NCBI GenBank assembly: GCA_017644045.1 | Contig: JAEPMI010000004.1 | Span: 142,014 to 206,013 of the forward strand | Source: Deltaproteobacteria bacterium | GTDB taxonomy: Bacteria > Myxococcota_A > Polyangia > Polyangiales > Houyiibacteriaceae | DNA length: 64,000 nt | Direction: 5' to 3' | Shown here: piece by piece, positions 41,425 through 55,723 of the stretch | Layout: the number at the start of each line of letters is the position of its first letter | Position numbering within the stretch: position 1 is the first letter of the stretch | Program-made: the position numbers and the translations under genes | Notes under the pieces: generated by a model | Database searches by the model: none | The model's input: the letters and a program-made list of their open reading frames with translations, nothing else | What the model was told of the DNA's origin: nothing

Positions 41425-42105
41425 ATGAGAGCGGCGCTCGCGTTCGCGGCGCTGCTGGCAATTGGGTGTGAGGCGACGGCGACCGAGATCGTCGTCGTGG
41501 TCGACAGCGATCTGGTAGCCGGCACGGAGCTCACCGACGTGGTCGTCGCCACCGACGGAGCGAGTCACCAGTTCCCGATCGACGACGCAGCCGACCTGCC
41601 GTTGACCTTCAGCGTGGTACCGGGCCTCGGACAGTCGGACCGGGCAACGGTCCGAATCTCCATCACCGGCCTGAACGCCGGTGGCGTGCCGCTCGTCGAG
41701 GCGCTCGCGGTCACCACCTTTCGCCCCGACCAACGGCGAGTGCTGCCCATTCCCCTGGCCCGGAGCTGCATCGTGCTGGAGGACTGCCCGGACCACGGAG
41801 GCGACTCCACGTGCCGGGACGGCGAGTGCGTCTCCGCGATGGTGGACAGCTCGACACTCGGCCGAGGCGACGGTTCGGGCGTCCGCCTCTTCGACGGACC
41901 GAGCGAAGGAGACGCGGGCATCGCGGTGGACGACGGTGGGCCCGCGTGCGAGCCGGGCGGGAGCTGCGAGGTCAGCGCCGGCTGCGCGGTGGGCACCCAG
42001 GTCTGCGACCCCGCGCCGGACTGTGTGGACCTGACGTCCATGCCGGCCGGTACCGAATGTGGCGATGGCCGGTTCTGCGATGGGATGGGCATGTGCGGAC
42101 GCTGA
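41425..42105 (+). CDS. hypothetical lipoprotein (Cys-rich C-terminus)
   Basis: Lipobox LLAIGC. GGAGGGG lies upstream of the ATG. The C-terminal Cys-rich stretch is CEPGGSCEVSAGCAVGTQVCDPAPDCVD...CGDGRFCDGMGMC. Confidence 0.75.
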   Translation: MRAALAFAALLAIGCEATATEIVVVVDSDLVAGTELTDVVVATDGASHQFPIDDAADLPLTFSVVPGLGQSDRATVRISITGLNAGGVPLVEALAVTTFRPDQRRVLPIPLARSCIVLEDCPDHGGDSTCRDGECVSAMVDSSTLGRGDGSGVRLFDGPSEGDAGIAVDDGGPACEPGGSCEVSAGCAVGTQVCDPAPDCVDLTSMPAGTECGDGRFCDGMGMCGR

Positions 42106-43046
42106 GTCTGGCGGCATGGCTGGTCTTCGTCGGCACCGCCGCAGCGCAGCCGACGACCGAGCCGACCGAAGAGGCCCCGGATCCGGCGGAGGAAGAGGCG
42201 CGCATCCTCTTCGACCACGGGCGAGAGCTCGCGGAAGAGCGCCGCTTCGCCGAAGCCGTGGAGGCCTTCGAGCGAAGCCTCGAGCGTCACGCCCGCCCGT
42301 CCACGCGCTTCAACCTCGCGCTCTGCCTCTTCGCCCTCGGGCGGCACGTCGAGACTCTCGACGTGCTCGAGCGCTACGTCGCCGAAGCGCCACCGGAAGA
42401 AGCGGAGGGTGTGATCGAAGCACGGCGCATGATGGCGCTGGCGCGCGGCCGCCTGGCGACGTTGGCCGTCGAGACGGTCCCCGCGGACGCGAGCGTGACC
42501 ATCGACGGAGACACGGTCTCCGACGCGCGCGAGCTGCGCCTCGACCCGGGCGTGCACGTGGTGCGCGTCGCCGCGCTCGACCACGCGACCCAGGTGATGC
42601 GTCTCGAGCTCGGCGCCGGTGAGCGACGTCGCGAGCTGGTGCGCCTGGAGTCGACGCGCAGCCCCGCGCTCCTCAGCCTGAGCGTCGATCGTCCGGCGAC
42701 GATCACCTTGGATGGCGTCGTCATCGATGCGGTCCGAGACGAGCGACTCGAGCCCGGCCCGCACCGACTCGTGGTCGAAGCGCCTGGCGCGAGTTGGACG
42801 CGAGACCTGACCCTCGAGTCCGGCCAGCACCACGAGATCGATCTCGCCCTTCCCCCGGAACCGCCGCCGCCGGCCGAGTGGTGGCAGAAGCCGTGGCCCT
42901 GGCTCGCGGCTGGCGTCGTGGTGGTCGGCGGCATCTTGGCGGCCGTGTTGCTCACCGGCCGCACGGGCGAGCCGACCGGCGGCAATACCGGCGTGGTGCT
43001 GGAAGGCGGGAGCGCGGGACCGACCGGGGCGCGGATCGTTCCGTGA
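42093..43046 (+). CDS. TPR-like + PEGA-domain membrane protein
   Basis: Part of ORF 41811..43046. GTG 42093 (or ATG 42057) gives the signal peptide LSLAAWLVFVGTAAAQ. PEGA-like strands (LAVETVPADASVTIDGDTV; LSLSVDRPATITLDGVV) and a C-terminal TM. Confidence 0.75.
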   Translation: MRTLSLAAWLVFVGTAAAQPTTEPTEEAPDPAEEEARILFDHGRELAEERRFAEAVEAFERSLERHARPSTRFNLALCLFALGRHVETLDVLERYVAEAPPEEAEGVIEARRMMALARGRLATLAVETVPADASVTIDGDTVSDARELRLDPGVHVVRVAALDHATQVMRLELGAGERRRELVRLESTRSPALLSLSVDRPATITLDGVVIDAVRDERLEPGPHRLVVEAPGASWTRDLTLESGQHHEIDLALPPEPPPPAEWWQKPWPWLAAGVVVVGGILAAVLLTGRTGEPTGGNTGVVLEGGSAGPTGARIVP

Positions 43047-43054
43047 GCGGAGCG

Positions 43055-44380
43055 ATGGTGGCCGGCCGTTTCGAGCGCGGTCGCCTGCTCGGCAAGGGCG
43101 GGATGGGCACGGTCTACGAAGCCGAGGACACGGTGCTCGGTCGGTCCGTGGCGCTGAAGTTCCTTCGGCCGGAGCTCGCGGACGATCCGGAGATGGTCGC
43201 CCGCTTCCAACGAGAGGTCCGCGCGATCGGCCGACTGCAGAGCCCGAACGTGGTGGCCGTGCACGACGTGGGCTCGGACCCGGACGCAGGCCTCTTCATG
43301 GTGCTCGAGAGGCTCGATGGCGAGAGCCTGCACGACGTGATCGTGAGCCGCGGGCCGCTCTCGATTCGAGAGGCGTGTGCCATCGCCGGCCAGACTCTGG
43401 CTGCGCTGCGTGCCGCGCACGAGGCCAAGGTGATCCATCGCGATCTCAAGCCGGACAACGTCTTCGTTCTCCGCGACGGATCGGTGAAGGTGCTCGACTT
43501 CGGCATCGCGCACCTGCTGGAGGGACACCGCACCCACCCCGGGAGAGACACCACGCCCGACCTCGGAACGACCCCGAGCTCACCCACGCTCACCCGAGCG
43601 GACCGCGTGTTGGGCACGCCGCTCTACATCGCACCCGAGCAGCTCACGAAGCAGCCACCCGGTCCGGCGACCGACCTCTACTCGCTCGGAGTCGTGCTCT
43701 TCGAAATGATCGCGGGACGGCCACCCTTCGAGTCCCTCGATGCCAAGGAGCTCTGCGACATGCACCTGGCCATGCCGCCGCCGCCGTTGACCTCACCGAA
43801 CGGTGCGGTACCCGCGGACCTGGTCGCGCTCGTGGCCAAGATGCTGGCGAAGTCCCCGGGCGGCCGACCCACCGCGAGCAAGGTCGCGGAGATCCTCGCG
43901 CGCCACGCGAGTGACGCCCCGCCGATCCAAACGCCAGGGTTGCCGGTCGCGCGTTGGCTGGTGATGACCCTCGGGGCGCTGGCCGTGCTCGGCGTCGTTG
44001 CGTATGCGGGGATGCGGCCCGAGTCCCCCCACGCGCACCTCCGGCCAGCGATGCCGGTGCAGGAGCCGCCGCCCCTCCCGGAGCCGGCGCCGGAACCAGA
44101 GCCGGACGAAGGGACGGTGGAGCGGCTGCCCACCGAGGTCACCCTCGAGGTCGCGGGACTCCCGAGCGACGCCGAGCTCCGCTGGGACGGGGACGTGGTC
44201 TCGAACCCGTGGACCACGGCGGAGGACGACGAGGCCCACCGACTCGAGGTGGTGCGCGGTGGACGACTCGAGACCTTCGAGGTCGTGCCCGACGAGGATC
44301 GCGTCATCGAGCTGCCCACCACCCGACGACGAACGAGGCGACGCCGAGAGGCATTGCCTGCCCAGCTGCGGGAGTGGTGA
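43055..44380 (+). CDS. Ser/Thr protein kinase
   Basis: Part of ORF 42794..44380. GKGGMGTVY, VALKFL, HRDLKPDNVFV, DFGIA, APE. The start is ATG 43055, or GTG 43043 overlapping the upstream stop (GTGA). Confidence 0.9.
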   Translation: MVAGRFERGRLLGKGGMGTVYEAEDTVLGRSVALKFLRPELADDPEMVARFQREVRAIGRLQSPNVVAVHDVGSDPDAGLFMVLERLDGESLHDVIVSRGPLSIREACAIAGQTLAALRAAHEAKVIHRDLKPDNVFVLRDGSVKVLDFGIAHLLEGHRTHPGRDTTPDLGTTPSSPTLTRADRVLGTPLYIAPEQLTKQPPGPATDLYSLGVVLFEMIAGRPPFESLDAKELCDMHLAMPPPPLTSPNGAVPADLVALVAKMLAKSPGGRPTASKVAEILARHASDAPPIQTPGLPVARWLVMTLGALAVLGVVAYAGMRPESPHAHLRPAMPVQEPPPLPEPAPEPEPDEGTVERLPTEVTLEVAGLPSDAELRWDGDVVSNPWTTAEDDEAHRLEVVRGGRLETFEVVPDEDRVIELPTTRRRTRRRREALPAQLREW

Positions 44381-45032: not shown

Positions 45033-45110
45033 ATGAATTCGTCCCAACACTCGGGTGCGCTCGCAGGCGCCAGTCTCGTCCTCGCGCACCCCGAAGGGAG
45101 CCGCCGATGA
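45033..45110 (+). CDS. candidate 25-codon upstream ORF / leader peptide (MNSSQHSGALAGASLVLAHPEGSRR)
   Basis: A perfect AAGGAGG (45020-45026) lies 6 nt before ATG 45033. Its TGA stop (45108-45110) overlaps the ATG of gene 45107 (ATGA). Too short for the ORF track. Confidence 0.35.
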   Translation: MNSSQHSGALAGASLVLAHPEGSRR

Positions 45111-45454
45111 CGGTCTCCCATCACCCCGAGCCGGAGGGCAACGTCTTCCGCGCCGAGCCCGACGACATGGCCGTCGAGGTCCACTCCGTCGCGGAGCCGG
45201 TGGCGGTGGTGAAGCGCCGCGACCCCGTGGGGATCGCCCGCTTCGCGCGCTTCCTCCGCGACCGCTTCGGCCGCTTCATGCCCTCGCGGAAGCGGCGACC
45301 GGGCCGCGAACGCATGGTCCAGGCGCTCGTCGAACGCTGCGACCTACCCCGGCGACGGGCTCGATCGCTGGTCAACCGACTGGAGGACAAGGGCCTGCTC
45401 CGCTTCGTCCGGCGAAAGCGCCGACGCAACGGTTTCTTCATCGAGACCGCTTGA
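45107..45454 (+). CDS. small basic hypothetical protein (possible winged-helix)
   Basis: ORF 45107..45454 is GC3-rich. The C-terminal half is Arg-rich (RMVQALVERCDLPRRRARSLVNRLEDKGLLRFVRRKRRRNG). Confidence 0.6.
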   Translation: MTVSHHPEPEGNVFRAEPDDMAVEVHSVAEPVAVVKRRDPVGIARFARFLRDRFGRFMPSRKRRPGRERMVQALVERCDLPRRRARSLVNRLEDKGLLRFVRRKRRRNGFFIETA

Positions 45455-45491: not shown

Positions 45492-47096
45492 GTGGGCAGC
45501 GTGGGCTCCATACTGACCGGGATTTTCTACGCGCTCATCGCGGGCGCGGCGGCGTTCTTCGTCCACAAGGTCCTCTGGTTCGTCCGCTATCGGAAGATCC
45601 AGGAGAAGCTGGTCGCCAAGGCCCTCGAGCGCTTGCGCGAGGAAGCCAACACCACCGTCGTCCGCTGGGACCAGGGCGCGGACGCCAGCTGGTCCGAGGC
45701 GTCGATGCACGGCCAGGGCGCGACGCCCACGGACTACGTGCGCAAGGTCGAAGCGAAGCTCGCCGCCATCGAGGAGGAGCTCGAAGGGAGCCACTCGCCG
45801 ATCCGTCGCCGCTTCGTCCACGCGGTCGCCGGCGAGGCGCTCGACGAGCCCATCGAGGTGTTGTCCGTGCCCCGCCTCAAGGGCGAGCCGGCGAAGGTCA
45901 CGCTGGCCCTCGACTTCAAGCCGATCCCCGATCCCGAGGTGCCGGACGAGTCGATCTTCCAGCTCGAGGTCCGCTCCCGCTACGGCTTCGGTCGACGCCT
46001 CCTCGCGTTCGTCTTCGGTGCCGCCGACGTCGTCTACAGCAGCCAGCACCTGGTGCGCATGTCGCAGGACCCGAAGGTTCCGGCCGGCGTGCTGCTGCGA
46101 CGCATCTCGCTGGTGCTGCTGATCCTGCTCGCGCTCATGGTCGACATGGGCTTCGGCATCCGTCCGCGGCTGCACGACTGGGTCGAGACCAAGCTGATCG
46201 AGTCCGCCGGCATGGAGCCGGGGTTCATGCGCGACGCGCTCTCGAACACCTTCGCCCTCGGCCTCTGGCTGACCGTGTACGGCGCGCTCTACCTCGGCCT
46301 CTACTTCTACCTGCGCTGGCGCTCCGGTCGGTACCTCTCACAGCTCGAGGAGATGCGGCGGACCTTCTCCAACCGCGTCGCCGATCTCCGCGACCAGCAC
46401 CTCGACGAGCTGCAGCGCTGGGCGCACGAGTACGCAGGCACGCTCGACGACGCCGCCGCGCTCACGCGGAACCAGGCGGCGATGCTCGTCCACCGGTCGG
46501 TGCACCGGCTCCGGCGCCGCATCGCGAGCCCACGGCTGCTCGCGCTCGCGAGCGAGGTGGCCGTGTGCTTCTTCGATCGGCTGCCGGAGTCGTCGAAGCA
46601 GCTGCAGGACGTGGCGACCTCGCATCAGCATTCGTGGAAGCACAGCTTCTGGCCGCAGGCGACCGAGATGCGCTACCAGCTCGAGCTCGCGCAGTGGCGA
46701 CACGCCTGGCGAGCGATCGAGGTCTGCCTGAGCACGCTCCGCGGCAAGGACCCCGACCCGGATCTGGCCGACCAGCTCTGGCGATCACTCGTCCGCTACG
46801 CACGGATGTTTCCAAAGATCGTCCCCGAGGATCTCTTCGCCCGTCTGCAGGAGGCCCACGGCGACACCGTGGCGACGCTCGTGGAAGCGACCGAGCAGGA
46901 CCTCCACGAGCTCGACGCGCGCCTGGGTGAGCTCACCGTTGCCCTACAGCACACGGTCGATGCGGTCGGACCGCTCGTCGAATCACGCATCGAGCTCGCC
47001 ATGCGCGGGATGGAAGCGTCGGTCGCCGACCTCACGAGCGAGGTCCTCGCGGTCCGGGAACGAGCCCGCCTCGAGGCGATGGCGTTCGAGATTTAA
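45492..47096 (+). CDS. hypothetical membrane protein (534 aa)
   Basis: ORF 45492..47096 with a GTG start. N-terminal TM ILTGIFYALIAGAAAFFV, central TM cluster, long helical C-terminal region. No family recognised. Confidence 0.75.
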   Translation: MGSVGSILTGIFYALIAGAAAFFVHKVLWFVRYRKIQEKLVAKALERLREEANTTVVRWDQGADASWSEASMHGQGATPTDYVRKVEAKLAAIEEELEGSHSPIRRRFVHAVAGEALDEPIEVLSVPRLKGEPAKVTLALDFKPIPDPEVPDESIFQLEVRSRYGFGRRLLAFVFGAADVVYSSQHLVRMSQDPKVPAGVLLRRISLVLLILLALMVDMGFGIRPRLHDWVETKLIESAGMEPGFMRDALSNTFALGLWLTVYGALYLGLYFYLRWRSGRYLSQLEEMRRTFSNRVADLRDQHLDELQRWAHEYAGTLDDAAALTRNQAAMLVHRSVHRLRRRIASPRLLALASEVAVCFFDRLPESSKQLQDVATSHQHSWKHSFWPQATEMRYQLELAQWRHAWRAIEVCLSTLRGKDPDPDLADQLWRSLVRYARMFPKIVPEDLFARLQEAHGDTVATLVEATEQDLHELDARLGELTVALQHTVDAVGPLVESRIELAMRGMEASVADLTSEVLAVRERARLEAMAFEI

Positions 47097-47112
47097 CCCG
47101 CCTTAACCCGCC
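47093..47112 (+). repeat. perfect tandem direct repeat TTAACCCGCC x2
   Basis: Seen directly. It straddles the TAA stop of gene 45492..47096 and lies about 80 nt upstream of the first MYXO-CTERM small-protein gene. Confidence 0.7.
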
Positions 47113-47192
47113 ACTCGTTCTTCGCTCTCCCCCATCGGTGGTAGGCTCCCGCCTGGCTCTGGGTGGATTCGAGCCGGAACGGAGAGACCAAG

Positions 47193-47681
47193 ATGACTTT
47201 CAAACTACTCGCGAGCTTGGCGTTGGCCATGCTGATCACCCTGTTGATGCCGGCCTCCGAGGCCCTGGCCCGTTGCTGTGGCGCCAGCTGCTGTTTCATC
47301 GATGGCATGTGTCGTACGACCGGCGAGGTGAACCCCGACAACTCGTGCGAGATGTGCGACCCGTCGAGCGCCGGTACGGCCTGGACCACCATCGATGGCT
47401 GCGGCGACGACGCGGGCGCCGGCGACGAAGACGCCGGCATGTCGATGGACGAGGACGCCGGCATGTCGATGCCAGGCGAAGACATGGGCCCTCCCGCGGG
47501 AACCGACATGGGCACCCCGGGAACCGACATGGGCACCCCGTCGGGAACCGACATGGGCACCAGCGGAGGCGACGATGACGGCTCGGACGACGGCGGCTGC
47601 TCCGCCGGCGGCACCGGCGCCTTCGGAGGCCTCTTCGGCCTCCTGCTCCTCGGCCTCCGCCGTAAGAAGGGAATGCAGTGA
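47193..47681 (+). CDS. small Cys-rich secreted protein with MYXO-CTERM anchor, paralog 1
   Basis: Internal ATG of ORF 47163..47681 with GGAGAG upstream. Signal peptide, CCGASCCFIDGMCRTTGEVNPDNSCEMCDPS module, Met/Asp repeats, and tail GGCSAGGTGAFGGLFGLLLLGLRRKK. Confidence 0.8.
   Translation: MTFKLLASLALAMLITLLMPASEALARCCGASCCFIDGMCRTTGEVNPDNSCEMCDPSSAGTAWTTIDGCGDDAGAGDEDAGMSMDEDAGMSMPGEDMGPPAGTDMGTPGTDMGTPSGTDMGTSGGDDDGSDDGGCSAGGTGAFGGLFGLLLLGLRRKKGMQ
47424..47561 (+). repeat. in-frame tandem repeats encoding DEDAGMSM x2 and GTDMGTP x3
   Basis: gacga(a/g)gacgccggcatgtcgatg occurs twice in tandem and ggaaccgacatgggcacc three times, inside gene 47193..47681. Confidence 0.75.
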
Positions 47682-48040
47682 TGAAGCGATTTGGAATCGG
47701 TTTGGCGTTGGCCCTGGGCCTCATGGCGACCAGCGCCAGCGCTCAGGAAGACGTGGGCTCACAGGTCGACCAGATCTGCTGCGGCAGCAACTGCTGCCTC
47801 ATCGGCGGCACGTGCTTCACGAGCGGCGAGGCCAGCCCCGACGACGCCTGCATGGTGTGTGACCCCTCGGGCTCGAACACCAGCTTCACCAACACCTGCG
47901 GCAGCCCCGACATGGGCGGCGGCGATGGTGGAGACGACGGCGACGACGGCGGCTGCTCGGCAGCCGGTGGTCCCGCCGGCGCCTACGGTTTCGCGCTCAT
48001 CGGCGCGGCGCTCGCCTTCGTGCGACGCCGCCGGCGCTGA
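47681..48040 (+). CDS. small Cys-rich secreted protein with MYXO-CTERM anchor, paralog 2
   Basis: ATG 47681 shares 1 nt with the upstream stop (GTG 47678 is also possible). CCGSNCCLIGGTCFTSGEASPDDACMVCDPS module. Tail GGCSAAGGPAGAYGFALIGAALAFVRRRRR. Confidence 0.8.
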   Translation: MKRFGIGLALALGLMATSASAQEDVGSQVDQICCGSNCCLIGGTCFTSGEASPDDACMVCDPSGSNTSFTNTCGSPDMGGGDGGDDGDDGGCSAAGGPAGAYGFALIGAALAFVRRRRR

Positions 48041-49227
48041 GCCAGCAGCAGGACCAAACCGAACGCGCCCTCCGTCAGGGGGGCGCGTTCACGCGTGGAG
48101 ATGGCACACGCGCACCCGCCACCGCCGGTCGACGTCCCGGGAGGCGGCACGCCATCGACCGGCACCTCCACGTCCTCGGCGAGCGCCTCGCGGAAGGCCG
48201 GGCAGACGAGCGCTGCGTCGCTCTCCGCTGGGCACGCTCGGAGCGAGTCGAAGTCCGCGAGGTGGACGATCGGGGCGACGGCCTCGCGGGTGACGTGCGC
48301 GAGGAGCGCCGGATCGCGAGCCGGATCGAGACACGCCGCCAGTGACCCATCGATCGTCACGAGGCATCGGCCGGCCACGTCGTGGGCCCGCTCGAAGGTC
48401 CGACCGTCGGGGCTGAGGTCGAGCCCCTCGAGCCGACTGATCACCCAGAGCCCGTCGTCCGTCCATGCTCCGACCTCGAGCTGCGCGGCGGCGTGGACCT
48501 GCTCGAAGGTCTCGGTCGTCACGTCGAATCGCAGCACGCGCTCCGGCTCCGCCTCGCCATCGAAGTGCCGAACCACGAGGTGGACCTCTCCATCGCGCGC
48601 CGCGAGGAGCGTCGCGGAGTACTCCGTGCCCTCGAGGGCGACTTCGTAGCGGTCGAAGGCGACGCCGTCGTCGGATCGCTCGAGGAACACCTGCGGTGGT
48701 CCCTCGGCGCTGCGCGGGAGGAAGAGCACGCGCCACAGCGTCGACCCATCCATCAAGAGCTGGGCGACGAGGGCGTCGAGGGGATCGCCGACCGACTCCC
48801 ATGGTCCATCGACGGTTCGGTGAAAGAGCTGGTCCGGGGCGGCGACGCGCGTGGCGGCCGCGTAGACGCCACCCTCTGGATCGGTGACCACGTCGACCAC
48901 CCAGCTCTCGGCGAGCGGTCCGGCGGGCTGGGAGAACGTACACCCATCGGTCGATTCGAAGAGCCCATCGAAGGTGCCGAGGACGATCGTCCCCGCGCCA
49001 TCCAGCGCGACCTGCGCATCCTCCTCGTCGGCGTCGACCGCGAACGCAGCGGCGCAGCCCAGGGACCACTCGCCCGCGTCGCGAAAGGCCAGGCCCCAGG
49101 TCGCCCCGAGCACCAGGCTCCCGTCCGCGCGCTGGTGCGCCGTGGTGAGCGCCGCGGGCCGCGCGTGCGCGCGGGCGGAGCTCGCGGTGGATGCCACGAG
49201 AGCGAGCGCCGCGAGGCACCGAGTCAC
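47983..49227 (-). CDS. secreted protein with MYXO-CTERM-like anchor
   Basis: C-terminal 414 aa of ORF 47983..50274. GTG 49227-49225 overlaps the ACAD stop (GTGA) and gives the signal peptide VTRCLAALALVASTASSARA. Tail GGGGCACA...GAFGLVLLLAQRRRRR. Confidence 0.75.
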   Translation of the reverse strand: MTRCLAALALVASTASSARAHARPAALTTAHQRADGSLVLGATWGLAFRDAGEWSLGCAAAFAVDADEEDAQVALDGAGTIVLGTFDGLFESTDGCTFSQPAGPLAESWVVDVVTDPEGGVYAAATRVAAPDQLFHRTVDGPWESVGDPLDALVAQLLMDGSTLWRVLFLPRSAEGPPQVFLERSDDGVAFDRYEVALEGTEYSATLLAARDGEVHLVVRHFDGEAEPERVLRFDVTTETFEQVHAAAQLEVGAWTDDGLWVISRLEGLDLSPDGRTFERAHDVAGRCLVTIDGSLAACLDPARDPALLAHVTREAVAPIVHLADFDSLRACPAESDAALVCPAFREALAEDVEVPVDGVPPPGTSTGGGGCACAISTRERAPLTEGAFGLVLLLAQRRRRRTKASAAPMSAKP

Positions 49228-51897: not shown

Positions 51898-51998
51898 CCT
51901 CCGTGAATACGGAGCGCGGGGCCTCCACGTCAAGCCCCCGGCTCGTCCTTGACGGTGTCGGGCGGGACGGGAAGGCTCCGTACTCCTTCGGGTTCTCC

Positions 51999-54395
51999 AT
52001 GCGGCCGCTCGCGTTCGTCCTGTGTCCTGCGCTCTTCTGTCTCGGCCCCTCGGTCGTGCGCGCCCAGGCCGAAGATGCGCCGAACGAGACCGCGCCGACC
52101 GTCACGCCACCCTCGGTCGTCTCGATGCCGGACGTCGTGCTCGGCGAAGACGCCCGCGCCGCCGCGCGAGAGCTCGACGACCCGGCCGTCACGCTCGTCG
52201 TGCTGGTGCTGGCGGACGGGAGCGCCGAGCTCCAGGAGTGCCCGGCGCCAGACTCGGTGTGCGCGGACCTGCGAGCCGCGATCGAGGGCGCGGAGTTCAC
52301 GCCGGCACGGCGCGGCGAGGAGGCGCTGCCGGCGCGCATCTCCCTTCGCTTCTCCGTCGCTGTGCCGGACGAAGCCGAACCCGAGCCCGAGGAGCCCGAG
52401 CCCACGGAGCCGACGGCGGACTCCGACACGCCGCCCTCCCCCGCGGAGACGGCCGCCGCCGCGGAGCCCGAGCTGGCGTTCGGCGCTCGCGCCGTGGTGG
52501 TCAACCCACCGGAGGGCGCGCTGCGTCTCACCCTCGACGAGGCGCGCTCGCTACCCGGGACCCTCGGCGATCCCTTCCGGGCGGTGGAGGCGCTGCCGGG
52601 CGTCACGCCCATCTTCAGCGGGCTGCCCTACTTCTACGTCCGCGGCTCCCCGCCCTCGGGGACGCTCTACACGTACGACATGATCAACATGCCGATCCTC
52701 TTCCACCTGGGGCTCGGTCCGTCGGTCGTGCACCCACGCATGGTGGGGCCGATCCGGCTCTACTCGGGCGTGGGTCCGGCTCGCTACGGGCGGTACATCG
52801 GCGGCGTGATCGAAGCCGAAGGGCCGGAGCCGACACAGAGCGAGCTCATGGGCGAGGCCGAGCTGCGGCTGCTCGACGTGAACGGCTTCGTGCAGACCCC
52901 GGTGGGCGACGGCGAGCTGATGGTCGCCGCGCGCTACGGCTACCCGGGCCTGGTCATCTCGCTGGTGAGCCCCGGCACGAAGCTCTCCTACTGGGACTAC
53001 CAGCTCCGCTTCCGCCACCCGATCGGTCGCGACACCGACTTCGAGCTCGTGGCGCTCGGCTCCTTCGACCGGCTCGTGACCGAGGACGTCGACACGGACC
53101 CGATCACCGGCGCGCGCATGCGGACCGAGAACAAACTGAGCATCCACTTCCACCGCTTCGAGGCGCGGCTGGTCCACGAGTTCGGCCGCAACGAGTACGG
53201 CATGGCGCTCCGCTTCGGCTGGGGTGAGTCCTCGCTCGACGAACGCAACGACGCCGGTTCGCCGTCGGAGGTGGGCGTCCGCTCCACCAGCGTGGGCCCG
53301 CGCTTCTGGCTGCGCACCCGACGGCCGAAGCTCCAGACCTTCGTCGGCGGTGAGCTCTTCGGCACTGCGGGGAACATCGACATCGGCGATGCCGCGGACG
53401 GAGCCGACATGAGCTCGATGGACCCGGCGACCAACCAGTTCCTCGCGAGTGTCTCGGGACGGAGCGTGGCCGCGCTCTACGCCGAGCTGAACTGGAAGCC
53501 GAGCTCGGCGATGACCTACGACTTCGGCTTCCGCTCGGACCTCTGGCTGGCCGGCGGCACCGCCGAGCTCGCGCTCGACCCGCGGCTCCGCGGGACCTTC
53601 CACGTGCACGAGATGGTGGACCTGCACCTCGCCGTCGGCGTCACCCGCCAGCCAGCGGTCTTCTTCATTCCGCTCCCGGGCCTCGACGAGGTCGCCGTCG
53701 CCCGCGGCCCTCAGGTCGCCATCCAATCGGAGGCCGGCATCGCGCTCGAGCCCATCGACGACCTCCGCATCGAGGCGCAGGCGTTCGTGCACCGCTACAC
53801 CGGCTTGCTCTTCCTGGACCTCTTCCTCGACGGAGAGACCTGCGTGGAGGACGACATCGGCTGCCAGCGGGTCGACGTGCCCGACCGCGTGAGCGGCACC
53901 TCCTACGGCGCCGAATTCTTCATCCGTGCCGATCCGAAGCTGCGGCTCAGCGGCTTCGCGAGCTACACGCTCTCCTGGGCGCAGATCGACGCGCTCCCGG
54001 GCCTCGACTACACGCCGAGCTTCGACGTGCGCCACGTCTTCAACCTGGCCGGCCGCGCGCAGATCGTGCCCGATCGCTTCAGCATCGGCGCGCGGCTGCA
54101 CGTTCGGACCGGCAAGCCGCTCGGCGTGATCTACGTGGACCCCGCGGGACCGACCATCGGCCGCTACCAGCAACGGCTCCCGACCTTCTATCGGATCGAC
54201 GCCGAGATCGCCTACCAGTGGAAGACGCGCTGGGGTCGCTTCCGGCTCTCGCTCGAATGGCTCAACCTCACCTGGTCGCGCGAGCCGACCGACCTCGACT
54301 GCGGCTCGCTCATCGGCGCGCCCGATCCGCCTTGTGACGTGGGCTTCGCGCCCGCCATCGTACTCCCCAACATCGGCCTGCGAGGGACCTTCTGA
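51999..54395 (+). CDS. TonB-dependent receptor-like outer-membrane protein with N-terminal TonB-C-like domain
   Basis: Internal Met MRPLAFVLCPALFCLGPSVVRAQA of ORF 51903..54395. TonB-C-like AIEGAEFTPARRGEEALPARISLRFSV, plug motif LPGTLGDPFRAVEALPGV, a long beta-barrel region, and a terminal aromatic residue (RGTF). Confidence 0.8.
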   Translation: MRPLAFVLCPALFCLGPSVVRAQAEDAPNETAPTVTPPSVVSMPDVVLGEDARAAARELDDPAVTLVVLVLADGSAELQECPAPDSVCADLRAAIEGAEFTPARRGEEALPARISLRFSVAVPDEAEPEPEEPEPTEPTADSDTPPSPAETAAAAEPELAFGARAVVVNPPEGALRLTLDEARSLPGTLGDPFRAVEALPGVTPIFSGLPYFYVRGSPPSGTLYTYDMINMPILFHLGLGPSVVHPRMVGPIRLYSGVGPARYGRYIGGVIEAEGPEPTQSELMGEAELRLLDVNGFVQTPVGDGELMVAARYGYPGLVISLVSPGTKLSYWDYQLRFRHPIGRDTDFELVALGSFDRLVTEDVDTDPITGARMRTENKLSIHFHRFEARLVHEFGRNEYGMALRFGWGESSLDERNDAGSPSEVGVRSTSVGPRFWLRTRRPKLQTFVGGELFGTAGNIDIGDAADGADMSSMDPATNQFLASVSGRSVAALYAELNWKPSSAMTYDFGFRSDLWLAGGTAELALDPRLRGTFHVHEMVDLHLAVGVTRQPAVFFIPLPGLDEVAVARGPQVAIQSEAGIALEPIDDLRIEAQAFVHRYTGLLFLDLFLDGETCVEDDIGCQRVDVPDRVSGTSYGAEFFIRADPKLRLSGFASYTLSWAQIDALPGLDYTPSFDVRHVFNLAGRAQIVPDRFSIGARLHVRTGKPLGVIYVDPAGPTIGRYQQRLPTFYRIDAEIAYQWKTRWGRFRLSLEWLNLTWSREPTDLDCGSLIGAPDPPCDVGFAPAIVLPNIGLRGTF

Positions 54396-55723
54396 TGCGT
54401 CGCCGTCGTCTGCTCCTCCTGATCACGCTGGCCGCCTGTGGCAGCCGCGAGTGCCGCCTCGATCCTTCGCCGAGCTGCAGCTACCGGCCGGAGCGCGGCG
54501 TCTCCGACGCTGGGACGGAGACCTTCGCCGACGAGGTCGTCACCGTGCGCGCCGGCGACGTCCACGCGTGCGTGCTCCTCTCGACCGGAGACGACGTCTT
54601 CGGCGGCGAGGAGACGCGGGCGCGCTGCTGGGGCGGCAACCCGAACGACCAGCTCGCGCGGGTCGCGTCGCCGGGCGTCGGCGAGCTCTGGTGGTACGCG
54701 AACTGGGACGACCGCGGTCCCTTCGACGTCGGCGCGGCGCACGCGTGCGTGATGGACCCCGAGAGTCGCGGCGACGGACCGGAGCTCACCTGCTGGGGCA
54801 ACAACGAGGGCGGCCAACTGGGCGTCGACCCCGACGACACGATCGAGGGCGTCGTGCGCTCGAGCATCGGGTTCTCAGATGCGCTCGCGAGCATGGGCCT
54901 CGGTGGACTGCACGGCTGCATCGCAGGTTCCGACGCCGTGATCTGCTTCGGCGACGCGCGCTGGGGTCAGCTCGGCGAGCCCGACGCCGAGTGTTGTGGG
55001 CCGCGGAGCGTGAACGGCGGCGGCTGGGACGGCGCTGACGTCGTGGGCTTCCGACTCGCCGCCGGGACTCGCCACAACTGCGCCATCGCGCTCGAGGAAG
55101 ACGGCGTCGGACCGCTCCGCTGCTGGGGCCACGCCGGCTTCGGCCAGGTCGGCCCCACGCCCGAGCCGACGGAGGTCAGCCCCGCGCCCTACCCGGTGCT
55201 CCCGGCCGTGCGCGCCGTCGCCGCGGGTCCGCACCACACCTGCGTGATCGACGAGTCCCGCGCGGTTCTCTGCTTCGGTCGCAACGCGCGGGGGGAGCTC
55301 GGCGTCGGCGACGAGAGCGATCGCGTCGAACCGACGACCGTGGCGCTCGGCGCGGAGGCCGCCGCCATCTTCGCCGGCGGCGAATCCGGTCTCGACTTCG
55401 GCGGCGACCTCGACGTGGTCACTCCGGGCGCCGCGCACACCTGCGCGCTCGACGCCGAGGGACGCGCCTACGGCTGGGGCGACAACTCGGCGGGCCAGCT
55501 GGGACTGCCGGCAGGGCCGCCCGAGCTCGTCCCCGTCGCCGTCCACCCCGACCTCCGCTTCGCGAGCCTGGCGCTCGGCGGTCGCTTCACGTGCGGCGCC
55601 ACCCTCGACCACCGAGTGCTCTGCTGGGGCGCGAACGATCTCGGTCAGCTCGGCCGCACCGGCGAGGGCAGCCACGAGCCAACCGAGGTGCCGATCTTCA
55701 CCGAGAGCTTCGCGTCGCCCTGA
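54395..55723 (+). CDS. RCC1-repeat lipoprotein
   Basis: Lipobox LITLAAC. Repeated CWGxNxxGQLG-type units (CWGNNEGGQLG, CFGDARWGQLG, CWGHAGFGQVG, CFGRNARGELG, GWGDNSAGQLG, CWGANDLGQLG). Confidence 0.88.
   Translation: MRRRRLLLLITLAACGSRECRLDPSPSCSYRPERGVSDAGTETFADEVVTVRAGDVHACVLLSTGDDVFGGEETRARCWGGNPNDQLARVASPGVGELWWYANWDDRGPFDVGAAHACVMDPESRGDGPELTCWGNNEGGQLGVDPDDTIEGVVRSSIGFSDALASMGLGGLHGCIAGSDAVICFGDARWGQLGEPDAECCGPRSVNGGGWDGADVVGFRLAAGTRHNCAIALEEDGVGPLRCWGHAGFGQVGPTPEPTEVSPAPYPVLPAVRAVAAGPHHTCVIDESRAVLCFGRNARGELGVGDESDRVEPTTVALGAEAAAIFAGGESGLDFGGDLDVVTPGAAHTCALDAEGRAYGWGDNSAGQLGLPAGPPELVPVAVHPDLRFASLALGGRFTCGATLDHRVLCWGANDLGQLGRTGEGSHEPTEVPIFTESFASP

What the first reader, a model, noticed from the sequence alone, without database searches (positions are those of the whole stretch)
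47193..48040. Tandem small Cys-rich MYXO-CTERM paralogs sharing a CCGxxCCxIxGxC...PDxxCxxCDPS module
Two adjacent genes share 1 nt at the stop/start junction. They encode 162- and 119-aa secreted proteins with the same N-terminal module: CCG-x2-CC-x-I-x-G-x-C-x-T-x-GE-x2-PD-x2-C-x2-CDPS-x3-T-x-[WF]-T. Each then has an acidic linker and a MYXO-CTERM-type tail (GGCS...hydrophobic...RRKK/RRRRR). Paralog 1 additionally carries Met/Asp-rich repeats (DEDAGMSM x2, GTDMGTP x3), a composition seen in some Cu(I)/metal-binding segments. I do not recognise the Cys module as a named domain. It could be a disulfide-knotted or metal-binding surface-displayed mini-protein family.
Basis: partly seen in the sequence, partly recalled or inferred. 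Interest (0 to 1): 0.6.

Follow-up and report, generated by a model that had tools for sequence, protein, structure and literature searches.

The report
Lipid-anchored cysteine-knot surface mini-proteins
Two small overlapping genes of a marine Sandaracinus-like myxobacterium encode surface proteins that each carry one copy of a common but unnamed cysteine repeat on an acidic stalk, and these genes usually sit next to a surface beta-propeller gene.

Summary
ORF1 (47193-47681, 162 aa) and ORF2 (47681-48040, 119 aa) share one nucleotide. Both pass the NCBIfam MYXO-CTERM cutoff, and their modules align at 21/42 identities (E=2e-13). dN/dS against the closest relative is about 0.11-0.12.

The module has no match in Pfam-A, NCBIfam or PDB sequences. 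It is not an orphan, though. It is a single, capped copy of a widespread 37-aa repeat (C-x-I-x-G-x-C...G-x2-N-P-x-N-x-C-x2-C-x-P...W-T/S). That repeat has 803 cluster representatives, occurs up to 44 times per protein in Polyangiales giants, and is present in a brachiopod, a chiton and an annelid.

All 38 small-family members have exactly 8 module cysteines, even where one cysteine has moved. In the big repeats the fourth cysteine occupies one of two mutually exclusive positions (p=5e-93). This favours disulfides over metal binding. The Met-rich repeats are a lineage-specific variant of a generic acidic D-A-G linker.

One to three such genes lie next to a fast-evolving BNR-like beta-propeller with a sub-threshold MYXO-CTERM tail in about five distinct non-syntenic loci or groups, but not at five others.

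Most likely these are myxosortase-sorted surface binding modules working with that propeller. The ligand is unknown.

The parts
47181..47186 (+). GGAGAG Shine-Dalgarno-like site, 6 nt upstream of the ORF1 ATG
   Evidence: Read directly from the sequence. Its function is inferred.
47193..47681 (+). ORF1, the long-stalk paralog (162 aa)
   Evidence: It is called as a 162-aa gene in public assemblies. dN/dS is 0.12 against L001.
47193..47270 (+). ORF1 signal peptide (residues 1-26, ending ...SEALA|R)
   Evidence: A hydrophobic core followed by an A-x-A site, judged by inspection. This region is conserved in the family alignment. No signal-peptide predictor was run.
47274..47402 (+). ORF1 8-Cys module (residues 28-70, CCGASCCFIDGMCRTTGEVNPDNSCEMCDPSSAGTAWTTIDGC)
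   Evidence: An HMM built only from repeats of proteins of 350 aa or more scores it at 49.9 bits, while 1000 shuffles reach at most 7.4. It has 8 cysteines.
47403..47597 (+). ORF1 acidic low-complexity stalk (about 64 aa, 18 acidic and 0 basic residues) with DEDAGMSM x2 and GTDMGTP x3 repeats
   Evidence: Tandem repeats were found by TRF.
47592..47678 (+). ORF1 MYXO-CTERM sorting signal (GGC136S..., a transmembrane helix, then RRKK)
   Evidence: TIGR03901 scores 21.6 bits against a cutoff of 20, and TIGR03382 scores 16.4 against 15.85.
47681..48040 (+). ORF2, the short-stalk paralog (119 aa). Its ATG shares base 47681 with the ORF1 stop codon.
   Evidence: It is identical to P0167, named by NCBI 'hypothetical protein JJ863_11280 [Deltaproteobacteria bacterium]'. 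dN/dS is 0.11 against L001.
47681..47743 (+). ORF2 signal peptide (residues 1-21, ending ...SASA|Q)
   Evidence: Judged by inspection. AF2 predicts a helix at residues 7-19.
47777..47899 (+). ORF2 8-Cys module (residues 33-73)
   Evidence: Scores 43.4 bits against the big-protein repeat HMM. AF2 pLDDT is 74-91 over residues 31-75, with strands at 38-41, 44-47, 58-60 and 69-71.
47900..47953 (+). ORF2 short Gly/Asp stalk (18 aa)
   Evidence: AF2 pLDDT is below 50 here.
47948..48037 (+). ORF2 MYXO-CTERM sorting signal (GGC92S..., a transmembrane helix, then RRRRR)
   Evidence: TIGR03901 scores 25.2 bits against a cutoff of 20. AF2 predicts a helix at residues 104-118.
47983..49227 (-). Convergent neighbour p414 (414 aa): a signal peptide, a BNR/Asp-box-like beta-propeller, and a Cys-containing MYXO-CTERM-like tail. 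Its 3' end overlaps ORF2 by 58 nt.
   Evidence: The AF2 model is a propeller with pLDDT 76.5. Foldseek's best matches are sialidases, PLL/PHL lectins, Ycf48 and sortilin, at E about 1e-7 to 1e-6. The tail scores 16.2 bits on TIGR03901, below the cutoff of 20. Homologues lie next to small-family genes in several lineages.
48061..48090 (.). 13-bp GC-rich hairpin, 21 nt after the ORF2 stop and inside the 3' coding end of p414
   Evidence: Minimum free energy is -38.2 kcal/mol, z=-3.97. The stem is kept in five related loci, and 3 of 13 pairs show double changes. Its role is not established.

Best explanation
ORF1 and ORF2 are translationally coupled genes for two myxosortase-dependent cell-surface mini-proteins.

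Proposed pathway, by analogy with TraA:
1. Sec exports the protein and the N-terminal signal peptide is removed.
2. The 41-43-residue N-terminal module folds in the periplasm into a small beta structure locked by four disulfides.
3. The invariant Cys of the MYXO-CTERM motif (C136 in ORF1, C92 in ORF2) is lipidated.
4. A myxosortase (a CPBP-family intramembrane protease) cuts off the transmembrane helix and Arg tail.
5. The type II secretion system moves the lipid-anchored protein to the outer surface.

The result is one cysteine-knot module displayed on an acidic, disordered stalk. The stalk is about 64 aa in ORF1 and about 18 aa in ORF2.

The module is a stand-alone version of a widespread, unnamed 37-aa extracellular repeat, capped by three extra N-terminal cysteines and one extra C-terminal cysteine. 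That repeat builds giant mosaic adhesin-like proteins in Polyangia and in some lophotrochozoan animals. I therefore infer that it is a ligand-binding or adhesion module, not an enzyme or a metal site.

I also infer that it works together with the adjacent surface-anchored BNR-like beta-propeller, which recurs next to one to three such genes in several lineages.

What is shown: the anatomy, family membership, selection, cysteine covariation and gene neighbourhood. What is inferred: sorting, disulfide formation, the binding function and the partnership with the propeller.
For: Sorting signal. TIGR03901 is above its cutoff in both proteins. The tripartite tail and the MrtX, lipidation and T2SS pathway are described for TraA in PMC11980579 and in Haft's preprint.

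Real, constrained genes. dN/dS is 0.11-0.12 against L001. The genes are syntenic in L001, L010, L012, L015 and L018-L020.

Family. There are 38 small homologues with the same architecture.

Widespread repeat. The module profile finds 803 cluster representatives at E<=1e-3, with up to 44 copies per protein. An HMM trained only on proteins of 350 aa or more scores ORF1 at 49.9 bits and ORF2 at 43.4 bits, against at most 7.4 bits for 1000 shuffles. Carriers include Polyangiales giants and Lingula, Liolophura and Owenia proteins encoded on large (Lingula, 87 kb) or chromosome-scale (Liolophura, Owenia) contigs.

Extracellular mosaic context. The repeat co-occurs with Somatomedin_B, Dicty_CTDC, D8C_UMOD, F5/8 type C and ADAMTS_CR_2 domains.

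Disulfides.
- All 38 small members have exactly 8 module cysteines, although one cysteine changes place in the 'CCC' variant.
- In the AF2 model the old position (C45) and the new position (residue 40) are cross-strand neighbours in the 38-41/44-47 hairpin.
- Across 714 repeats, loss of the fourth Cys goes with gain of a Cys at -4: 225 of 275 against 4 of 439, Fisher p=5e-93.

Cassette. A p414 homologue (32-41% identical) is adjacent in L003, L004, L016, L017, L021, L022 and the P0164 contig, in three different arrangements, in addition to the Sandaracinus synteny group. The small genes have 3-7 times, and p414 2.5-4 times, higher dN than the flanking p534 and acyl-CoA dehydrogenase genes in the same genome pairs.
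Against: - No experiment or expression data exist for any member.
- No myxosortase gene is in the window; only a crude motif scan was done.
- The disulfide map is not known, because model coordinates could not be inspected.
- The fold search found nothing significant (best E=3), so a binding function rests only on domain context.
- The propeller is absent within the flanks available at L013, L014, L023 and L024, and on the short contig L002. The partnership is therefore frequent but not obligatory.
- The window's p414 tail is below the MYXO-CTERM cutoff (16.2 bits against 20).
Confidence: 0.6

Rival explanations
1. Surface metal-binding proteins. The CC-x3-CC cluster and/or the Met/Asp-rich repeats of ORF1 bind Cu(I) or another metal at the cell surface.
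For: Four cysteines lie within seven residues. ORF1's stalk contains 8 Met and 18 acidic residues. DM[GF] units recur three or more times in 8 of 38 members. A TonB-dependent receptor gene lies about 4 kb downstream.
Against: Met is replaced by Ala (D-A-G) in most members, including close orthologues such as P0106, P0158, P0160 and P0168, and ORF2 has a single Met in its stalk. The cysteine count is always even (8), and cysteines relocate in a compensatory way. The same repeat builds extracellular proteins of animals. No metal-binding family was hit in Pfam or NCBIfam.
Confidence: 0.08
2. Dedicated partners of the propeller. The knot modules are tethered ligands, regulators or inhibitors that dock onto the adjacent BNR-like propeller, in the way small Cys-rich modules pack on the Vps10 propeller. 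They would not be independent adhesins.
For: The genes are adjacent in three different orientations across lineages. All cassette genes evolve faster than their flanks. The 3' ends overlap by 58 nt and share a conserved hairpin. The propeller resembles lectin, sialidase, Ycf48 and sortilin folds, which bind ligands on one face.
Against: About half of the non-syntenic loci lack the propeller nearby. The repeat mostly occurs in giant proteins with no such propeller. No complex prediction could be run.
Confidence: 0.2
3. A polymorphic self or kin recognition set, or a decoy or receptor under diversifying selection, analogous in logic to TraA.
For: Module identity falls to about 42-44% between genomes whose flanking genes are about 90% identical, with dN close to dS for the ORF2 module against L010. 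Module types are shuffled between paralogs. Copy number varies from 1 to 3. TraA is a polymorphic MYXO-CTERM receptor.
Against: Part of the divergence is module replacement by recombination, not point substitution. dS is near saturation. No site-level test was done. There is no variable-domain architecture like the PA14-type domain of TraA, and no TraB-like partner.
Confidence: 0.1
4. Chance ORFs in GC-rich DNA, or decaying gene remnants.
For: High-GC DNA carries many shadow ORFs. For example, the antisense ORF at 47093..47614 has GC3 of 0.84.
Against: dN/dS is 0.11-0.12. There are 38 homologues with invariant cysteines. Curated HMM hits are above cutoff. The module is predicted with confidence.
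Confidence: 0.01

Closest known systems
TraA of Myxococcus xanthus, and MYXO-CTERM surface proteins in general (TIGR03901; myxosortase MrtX substrates)
   Same: An N-terminal signal peptide, a Cys-rich extracellular part, and a C-terminal tripartite MYXO-CTERM tail with an invariant Cys. Cleavage by a CPBP-family myxosortase and T2SS-dependent surface display are expected.
   Different: These proteins are tiny, about 71 and 110 mature residues. They carry one copy of a different Cys module: no hit to TIGR02232 or any TraA-type repeat was listed at E<=10. They have no PA14-like variable domain, and their neighbour is a propeller, not TraB.
The unnamed 37-aa repeat of giant Polyangiales proteins (e.g. 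MET0388882.1, 44 copies) and of lophotrochozoan proteins (Lingula XP_013390349.1, Liolophura XP_064595574.1, Owenia CAH1779195.1)
   Same: The same core, C-x-I-x-G-x-C-x3-G-x2-N-P-x-N-x-C-x2-C-x-P-x2-S-x3-W-[TS], at 43-50 bits against an HMM built from those proteins alone.
   Different: Here the repeat is single-copy, sits at the mature N-terminus, and is capped by three extra cysteines (CCGxxC) upstream and one downstream, giving 8 Cys instead of 4. It is fused directly to a stalk and a lipid-anchor signal.
Fibronectin type I and von Willebrand C (VWC) modules
   Same: These are small disulfide-stapled modules made of a beta-hairpin plus a short sheet. They are the top Foldseek rows, and they share a loosely similar G-x2-Y-x2-G-E...C-x2-C motif (the motif comparison is from my own knowledge).
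   Different: The matches are not significant (E 3-7, probability <=0.14, TM about 0.2-0.3). Profile searches of PDB sequences found nothing. Membership is not established.
GPI-anchored small Cys-rich proteins of eukaryotes (the Ly6/uPAR/CD59 type). This is a functional analogy from general knowledge.
   Same: A small disulfide-rich module is tethered to the outer face of a membrane by a lipid added after a C-terminal hydrophobic signal is removed.
   Different: The fold, the anchoring chemistry and the enzymes are unrelated. This is an analogy only.
Sortilin/Vps10-type and BNR/sialidase-type beta-propellers, and the NCBIfam NF045728 'F510_1955 family glycosylhydrolase' (for the neighbour p414)
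   Same: p414 has a propeller fold. Its remote homologue P0195 hits Sortilin-Vps10, BNR_2 and BNR below their cutoffs. The L016 and L017 homologues hit NF045728 at 56.6 and 48.2 bits.
   Different: All these scores are below the curated cutoffs (175 bits for NF045728). The window copy itself hits no family. No catalytic residues were assessed.

Membership tests
MYXO-CTERM sorting-signal proteins (TIGR03901; myxosortase substrates) | A C-terminal tripartite domain: a short signature with an invariant Cys, a transmembrane helix, and an Arg-rich end at the extreme C-terminus | tested here: met
   TIGR03901 scores 21.6 bits (ORF1) and 25.2 bits (ORF2) against a cutoff of 20. The Cys is invariant in all 38 family members.
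MYXO-CTERM sorting-signal proteins (TIGR03901; myxosortase substrates) | An N-terminal signal peptide | tested here: met
   By inspection only: a hydrophobic core followed by ALA|R (ORF1) or ASA|Q (ORF2), conserved across the family. No predictor tool was available.
MYXO-CTERM sorting-signal proteins (TIGR03901; myxosortase substrates) | The host is a Myxococcota or Bradymonadales genome with many such tails and a myxosortase (MrtX, MrtC or MrtP; core model NF040914) | not testable with these tools
   The lineage fits: the closest locus is an uncultured Sandaracinus MAG. The window holds two clear tails and one sub-threshold tail. Only 64 kb of the genome is available, and a motif scan found no CPBP candidate.
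MYXO-CTERM sorting-signal proteins (TIGR03901; myxosortase substrates) | Actual cleavage, lipidation and surface localisation | not testable with these tools
   This needs experiment. It has been shown only for TraA and a few other M. xanthus substrates.
Unnamed 37-aa Cys repeat (C-x-I-x-G...C-x2-C-x-P...W) | A significant match to a profile built from repeats of unrelated large proteins | tested here: met
   49.9 bits (ORF1) and 43.4 bits (ORF2), against at most 7.4 bits for 1000 shuffles.
Unnamed 37-aa Cys repeat (C-x-I-x-G...C-x2-C-x-P...W) | The invariant positions C2, C20 and C23, plus I4, G6, G12, P16, P25 and W/F32 | tested here: met
   All are present in both ORFs (column frequencies, alignment).
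Myxococcus cysteine-rich repeat (TIGR02232; the TraA stalk type) | An HMM match | tested here: not met
   TIGR02232 is not among the NCBIfam hits listed for either ORF at E<=10.
Met-rich Cu(I)-binding segments | Met motifs conserved among orthologues | tested here: not met
   DM[GF] occurs three or more times in only 8 of 38 members. Most have D-A-G instead, including close orthologues.
FN1/VWC-like disulfide modules | Significant structural or profile similarity | tested here: inconclusive
BNR/sialidase-like beta-propeller (neighbour p414) | A propeller fold with Asp-box-type repeats | tested here: met
   The AF2 model is a propeller. Foldseek matches sialidases and lectins at probability 1.00 and E about 1e-7. 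Asp-box-like S/T-x-D-G-G-x-T/S-[FW] motifs are seen in homologues. The family-level HMMs score below their cutoffs.

The most novel reading that the evidence does not exclude
The cassette of one to three rapidly diversifying, recombining cysteine-knot mini-proteins plus a MYXO-CTERM-like beta-propeller could be a previously unrecognised cell-surface recognition or adhesion system of marine Sandaracinaceae and other Myxococcota. It would be a ligand-receptor pair comparable in logic to TraA/TraB. It would be built from an ancient extracellular repeat shared, possibly by horizontal transfer, with lophotrochozoan animals, and that repeat has so far escaped domain databases.
Probability: 0.12. Interest if true: 0.7.

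Novelty: new variant of a known kind. Interest (0 to 1): 0.42.

Why it matters
MYXO-CTERM proteins determine how myxobacteria touch prey, kin and surfaces, yet only a few passengers, such as TraA, are understood. This locus contributes three things.

- It defines a compact, easily expressed passenger: a 41-43-residue knot on a stalk.
- It exposes a large extracellular repeat family (803 cluster representatives, bacteria and animals) that has no Pfam, NCBIfam or PDB representative. A curated model would annotate hundreds of proteins now labelled hypothetical.
- It suggests a testable surface cassette with a BNR-like propeller.

The importance is moderate. The sorting mechanism is already known, and the function of the module remains unknown.

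Tried and rejected
- The word-indexed homologue search with the two-module alignment found nothing. The exhaustive profile search and a DNA-pattern scan were needed instead.
- Pfam on both ORFs and on eight multi-repeat carriers gave no model for the repeat. NCBIfam hit only the sorting tails.
- PDB sequence searches with a 2-sequence and a 77-sequence profile gave no credible hit.
- The promoter and terminator scan was uninformative.
- Literature searches for the animal accessions and for Dicty_CTDC gave nothing on this repeat.
- A motif scan of the window for CPBP/myxosortase gave no candidate, but it is a weak test.
- The metagenome scan with the 38-sequence alignment failed for lack of a conserved stretch. 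An 8-sequence module alignment worked.
- I rejected the Cu/Met-binding reading and the chance-ORF reading.
- I rejected p534 and p115 as cassette members, because they accompany the small genes only within the Sandaracinus synteny group.
Full report
**1. What is in the sequence**

The window is 70% G+C. ORF1 runs 47193..47681 (162 aa) and ORF2 47681..48040 (119 aa), both on the + strand. The ORF1 stop TGA (47679-47681) and the ORF2 ATG (47681-47683) share base 47681. A GGAGAG site lies 6 nt upstream of the ORF1 ATG.

The two proteins align without gaps over 42 residues, with 21 identities and BLASTP E=2e-13. Each protein has the same four parts:
- a signal peptide;
- an 8-Cys module (ORF1 residues 28-70, ORF2 residues 33-73);
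- an acidic stalk with no basic residues (about 64 aa in ORF1, 18 aa in ORF2);
- a C-terminal tail that passes the curated cutoff of NCBIfam TIGR03901 MYXO-CTERM (21.6 and 25.2 bits against 20).

The DEDAGMSM x2 and GTDMGTP x3 repeats are true tandem DNA repeats.

**2. Are they real genes?**

Yes.
- ORF2 is identical to a protein that NCBI names 'MAG: hypothetical protein JJ863_11280 [Deltaproteobacteria bacterium]'.
- Both genes are called at the same coordinates in four independent assemblies.
- The closest other genome is an uncultured Sandaracinus MAG (L001). It keeps both genes and their neighbours in the same order.
- Against L001, dN/dS is 0.12 for ORF1 (0.02 within the module) and 0.11 for ORF2.

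**3. The small-protein family**

An exhaustive profile search and a profile-seeded word search recovered 38 small proteins of 113-208 aa with the same architecture. They come from Sandaracinaceae, 'Myxococcota bacterium' and 'Deltaproteobacteria bacterium' MAGs and from marine metagenomes.

A long-stalk and a short-stalk gene occur as an overlapping tandem pair on at least eight contigs. One genome has a single gene (L012). Another has three in tandem (L016).

Every member has exactly eight module cysteines.

A variant module, VCCGxxCCC-x-DG-xxQ, has lost the Cys of 'G-x-C' and gained one directly after 'CC'. In the AF2 model of ORF2 (module pLDDT 74-91), these two positions, residues 45 and 40, face each other across the 38-41/44-47 hairpin. 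This variant module occurs in either the long-tail or the short-tail gene in different genomes, so the paralogs exchange modules by recombination.

**4. The module is a capped single copy of a widespread unnamed repeat**

The two-sequence module profile matched 803 cluster representatives at E<=1e-3, and 232 at E<=1e-10. Most are large proteins with many matched stretches, up to 44 in a 3932-aa protein.

From 714 near-full-length copies, the 37-residue consensus is gCLIGGTCYaaGaaNPaNaCqvCdPstSttaWTnvag. C2, C20 and C23 are essentially invariant, and C8 is present in 61% of copies.

An HMM trained only on repeats from proteins of 350 aa or more scores ORF1 at 49.9 bits and ORF2 at 43.4 bits. 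One thousand shuffles reach at most 7.4 bits.

Named carriers are hypothetical proteins of Polyangiales and Myxococcales MAGs. There are also uncharacterised proteins of the brachiopod Lingula anatina, the chiton Liolophura sinensis and the annelid Owenia fusiformis. The last two are encoded on chromosome-scale contigs.

The repeat has no representation in the databases searched:
- Pfam-A gave no hits for the ORFs or for the repeats of the multi-repeat carriers scanned.
- NCBIfam hit only the sorting tails.
- PDB sequence searches with a 2-sequence and a 77-sequence profile were empty.

Foldseek of the model gave only non-significant rows, for fibronectin type I and VWC modules, at E 3-7. In the large proteins the repeat is mixed with Somatomedin B, Dicty_CTDC, uromodulin D8C, discoidin (F5/8 type C) and ADAMTS Cys-rich domains. 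That is the vocabulary of extracellular adhesion and matrix proteins.

**5. Disulfides, not metal**

Among the 714 repeats, copies that lack C8 have a Cys four residues before C2 in 225 of 275 cases. Copies that keep C8 have it in 4 of 439 cases (Fisher p=5e-93). A cysteine that can sit in either of two positions, but must be present, is the signature of a structural disulfide.

Together with the constant count of eight in the small family, this argues for four disulfides in ORF1 and ORF2: two from the core, and two from the CCGxxC cap plus the C-terminal Cys.

The Met-rich reading is weak. The generic stalk unit across the family is x-D-A-G-x. D-M-[GF] occurs three or more times in only 8 of 38 members, all close relatives of the window. 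Near orthologues such as P0106, P0158, P0160 and P0168 have D-A-G instead. What is conserved is acidity and the absence of basic residues.

**6. The neighbourhood**

Upstream, on the same strand, lie a 115-aa gene and a 534-aa membrane/coiled-coil gene with no family hits. They accompany the pair only within the Sandaracinus synteny group.

Downstream, convergent and overlapping ORF2 by 58 nt, is p414 (47983..49227, minus strand). Its AF2 model (pLDDT 76.5) is a beta-propeller. The best structural matches are sialidases, the PLL/PHL lectins, Ycf48 and sortilin-type propellers.

Homologues of p414 carry Asp-box-like motifs. They also give sub-threshold hits to Sortilin-Vps10, BNR and the NF045728 'F510_1955 family glycosylhydrolase'.

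The tail of p414 (GGGGCACA, a spacer, a transmembrane helix, RRRRR and 12 further residues) scores 16.2 bits on TIGR03901. This is just under the cutoff of 20.

Homologues that are 32-41% identical sit directly next to small-family genes in distant lineages and in different arrangements:
- divergent in L003, L004, L017, L021, L022 and the P0164 contig;
- convergent after three tandem small genes in L016.

The propeller is not within the flanks available at L013, L014, L023 or L024, nor on the short contig L002. The association is therefore frequent and independent of arrangement, but not universal.

In the same genome pairs, the small genes have dN of 0.30-0.51 and p414 has 0.23-0.37. The flanking p534 and acyl-CoA dehydrogenase genes have 0.06-0.13. 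The cassette thus evolves several times faster than its surroundings, as surface-exposed proteins often do.

**7. How it most likely works**

The proposed route follows the pathway described for TraA and other MYXO-CTERM proteins: a signal peptide, an invariant Cys that is presumably lipidated, cleavage by the CPBP-family myxosortase MrtX, and T2SS-dependent surface display (PMC11980579 and Haft's preprint).

On that basis, ORF1 and ORF2 are exported and oxidised in the periplasm. They are then lipid-anchored at C136 or C92, trimmed of their transmembrane/Arg tail, and moved to the outer surface. There they present the same kind of knot on a long and a short acidic tether.

I infer a binding or adhesion role for three reasons. 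The repeat's other carriers are mosaic extracellular proteins. The module is too small and too disulfide-dense for catalysis. The cassette partner is a lectin- or sialidase-like propeller.

Three readings cannot be decided here: whether the knots bind the propeller itself, share a ligand with it, or act as polymorphic recognition tags. I rank them as rivals. The sorting and disulfide parts of the explanation are well supported (about 0.85). The binding and cassette part is an inference (about 0.4).

**8. Comparison with known systems and novelty**

As myxosortase substrates, these are ordinary members of a known class. The HMM, the tail architecture, the signal peptide and the lineage are all met. 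The enzyme and the processing itself are not testable here.

They are not TraA-like in their passenger domain, because neither ORF gave a listed hit to TIGR02232. The passenger is an undescribed repeat family of considerable size and with a cross-kingdom distribution. The small capped form with its propeller neighbour is, as far as the libraries and literature searched show, not described.

I rate this a new variant of a known kind, of moderate interest.

**9. Limits**

- No expression or localisation data exist.
- The myxosortase gene lies outside the window.
- No coordinates were available for reading disulfide pairs from the model.
- The Nei-Gojobori estimates are rough, given 70% G+C and dS of 0.4-1.5.
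- The neighbourhood tally is based on about ten independent non-syntenic loci.

Noticed in passing
window 48061-48090: A 13-bp GC-rich hairpin lies 21 nt after the ORF2 stop, inside the 3' coding end of the convergent propeller gene. Its z-score is -3.97. The stem is kept in L001, L010, L012, L015 and L016, and 3 of 13 pairs are changed on both sides. It could be a terminator or stability element shared by the convergent genes.
   Followed up: partly
window 47983-48040: ORF2 and p414 overlap convergently by 58 nt, so the ORF2 transmembrane/Arg tail and the last 19 codons of p414 are encoded on opposite strands. Similar 3' overlaps (51-61 nt) are kept in the gene tables of L006-L012, L015 and L016. 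This may explain the 12-residue extension after p414's RRRRR.
   Followed up: partly
window 41425-44322 compared with L009, L010, L012, L015: Three genes lie between the anti-sigma-like gene and the methyltransferase: a 226-aa lipoprotein-like protein with a Cys-rich end, a 317-aa TPR/PEGA protein and a 441-aa Ser/Thr kinase. They are present here and in L006-L008 but absent in L009, which has an identical ORF2, and in L010, L012 and L015. This is a strain-level insertion or deletion.
   Followed up: no
P0164, P0171, P0178 (small-family members): Some family members have lipobox-like signal peptides (LLAGC, FVGC, LTGC). They may be lipid-anchored at both ends before myxosortase cleavage.
   Followed up: no
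L002:2719-3375: This variant has two core modules in tandem (only the first carries the CCGxxCC cap) and a long (PT)n/Pro-rich linker before its MYXO-CTERM tail. P0099 and P0141 are similar and add Dicty_CTDC-like CxDGxxCTxDxC segments. These forms are intermediate between the mini-proteins and the giant repeat proteins.
   Followed up: partly
L016:4423-7293: Three tandem small paralogs (170, 179 and 126 aa) are followed by a convergent, overlapping propeller gene that is 36% identical to p414. The first paralog has yet another cysteine spacing (CCLILGC) but still 8 cysteines.
   Followed up: partly
P0006, P0008, P0114 (Lingula, Liolophura, Owenia): The same 37-aa repeat occurs 5-21 times in uncharacterised animal proteins. 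One of them is a type I membrane protein. This distribution between Myxococcota and lophotrochozoans suggests ancient sharing or horizontal transfer.
   Followed up: partly
window 45492-47096 (p534) and 45107-45454 (p115): These are a conserved 534-aa membrane/coiled-coil protein and a 115-aa basic protein, both without any family hit. They sit upstream on the same strand and are highly conserved (82-96% identity) within the Sandaracinus group. Their function is unknown.
   Followed up: no
window 51903-55723 (seen through L006:14319-18043): A TonB-dependent receptor gene is directly followed by an RCC1/WD40_RLD-like propeller gene, about 4 kb downstream of the cassette. The pair is conserved in L010.
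   Followed up: no
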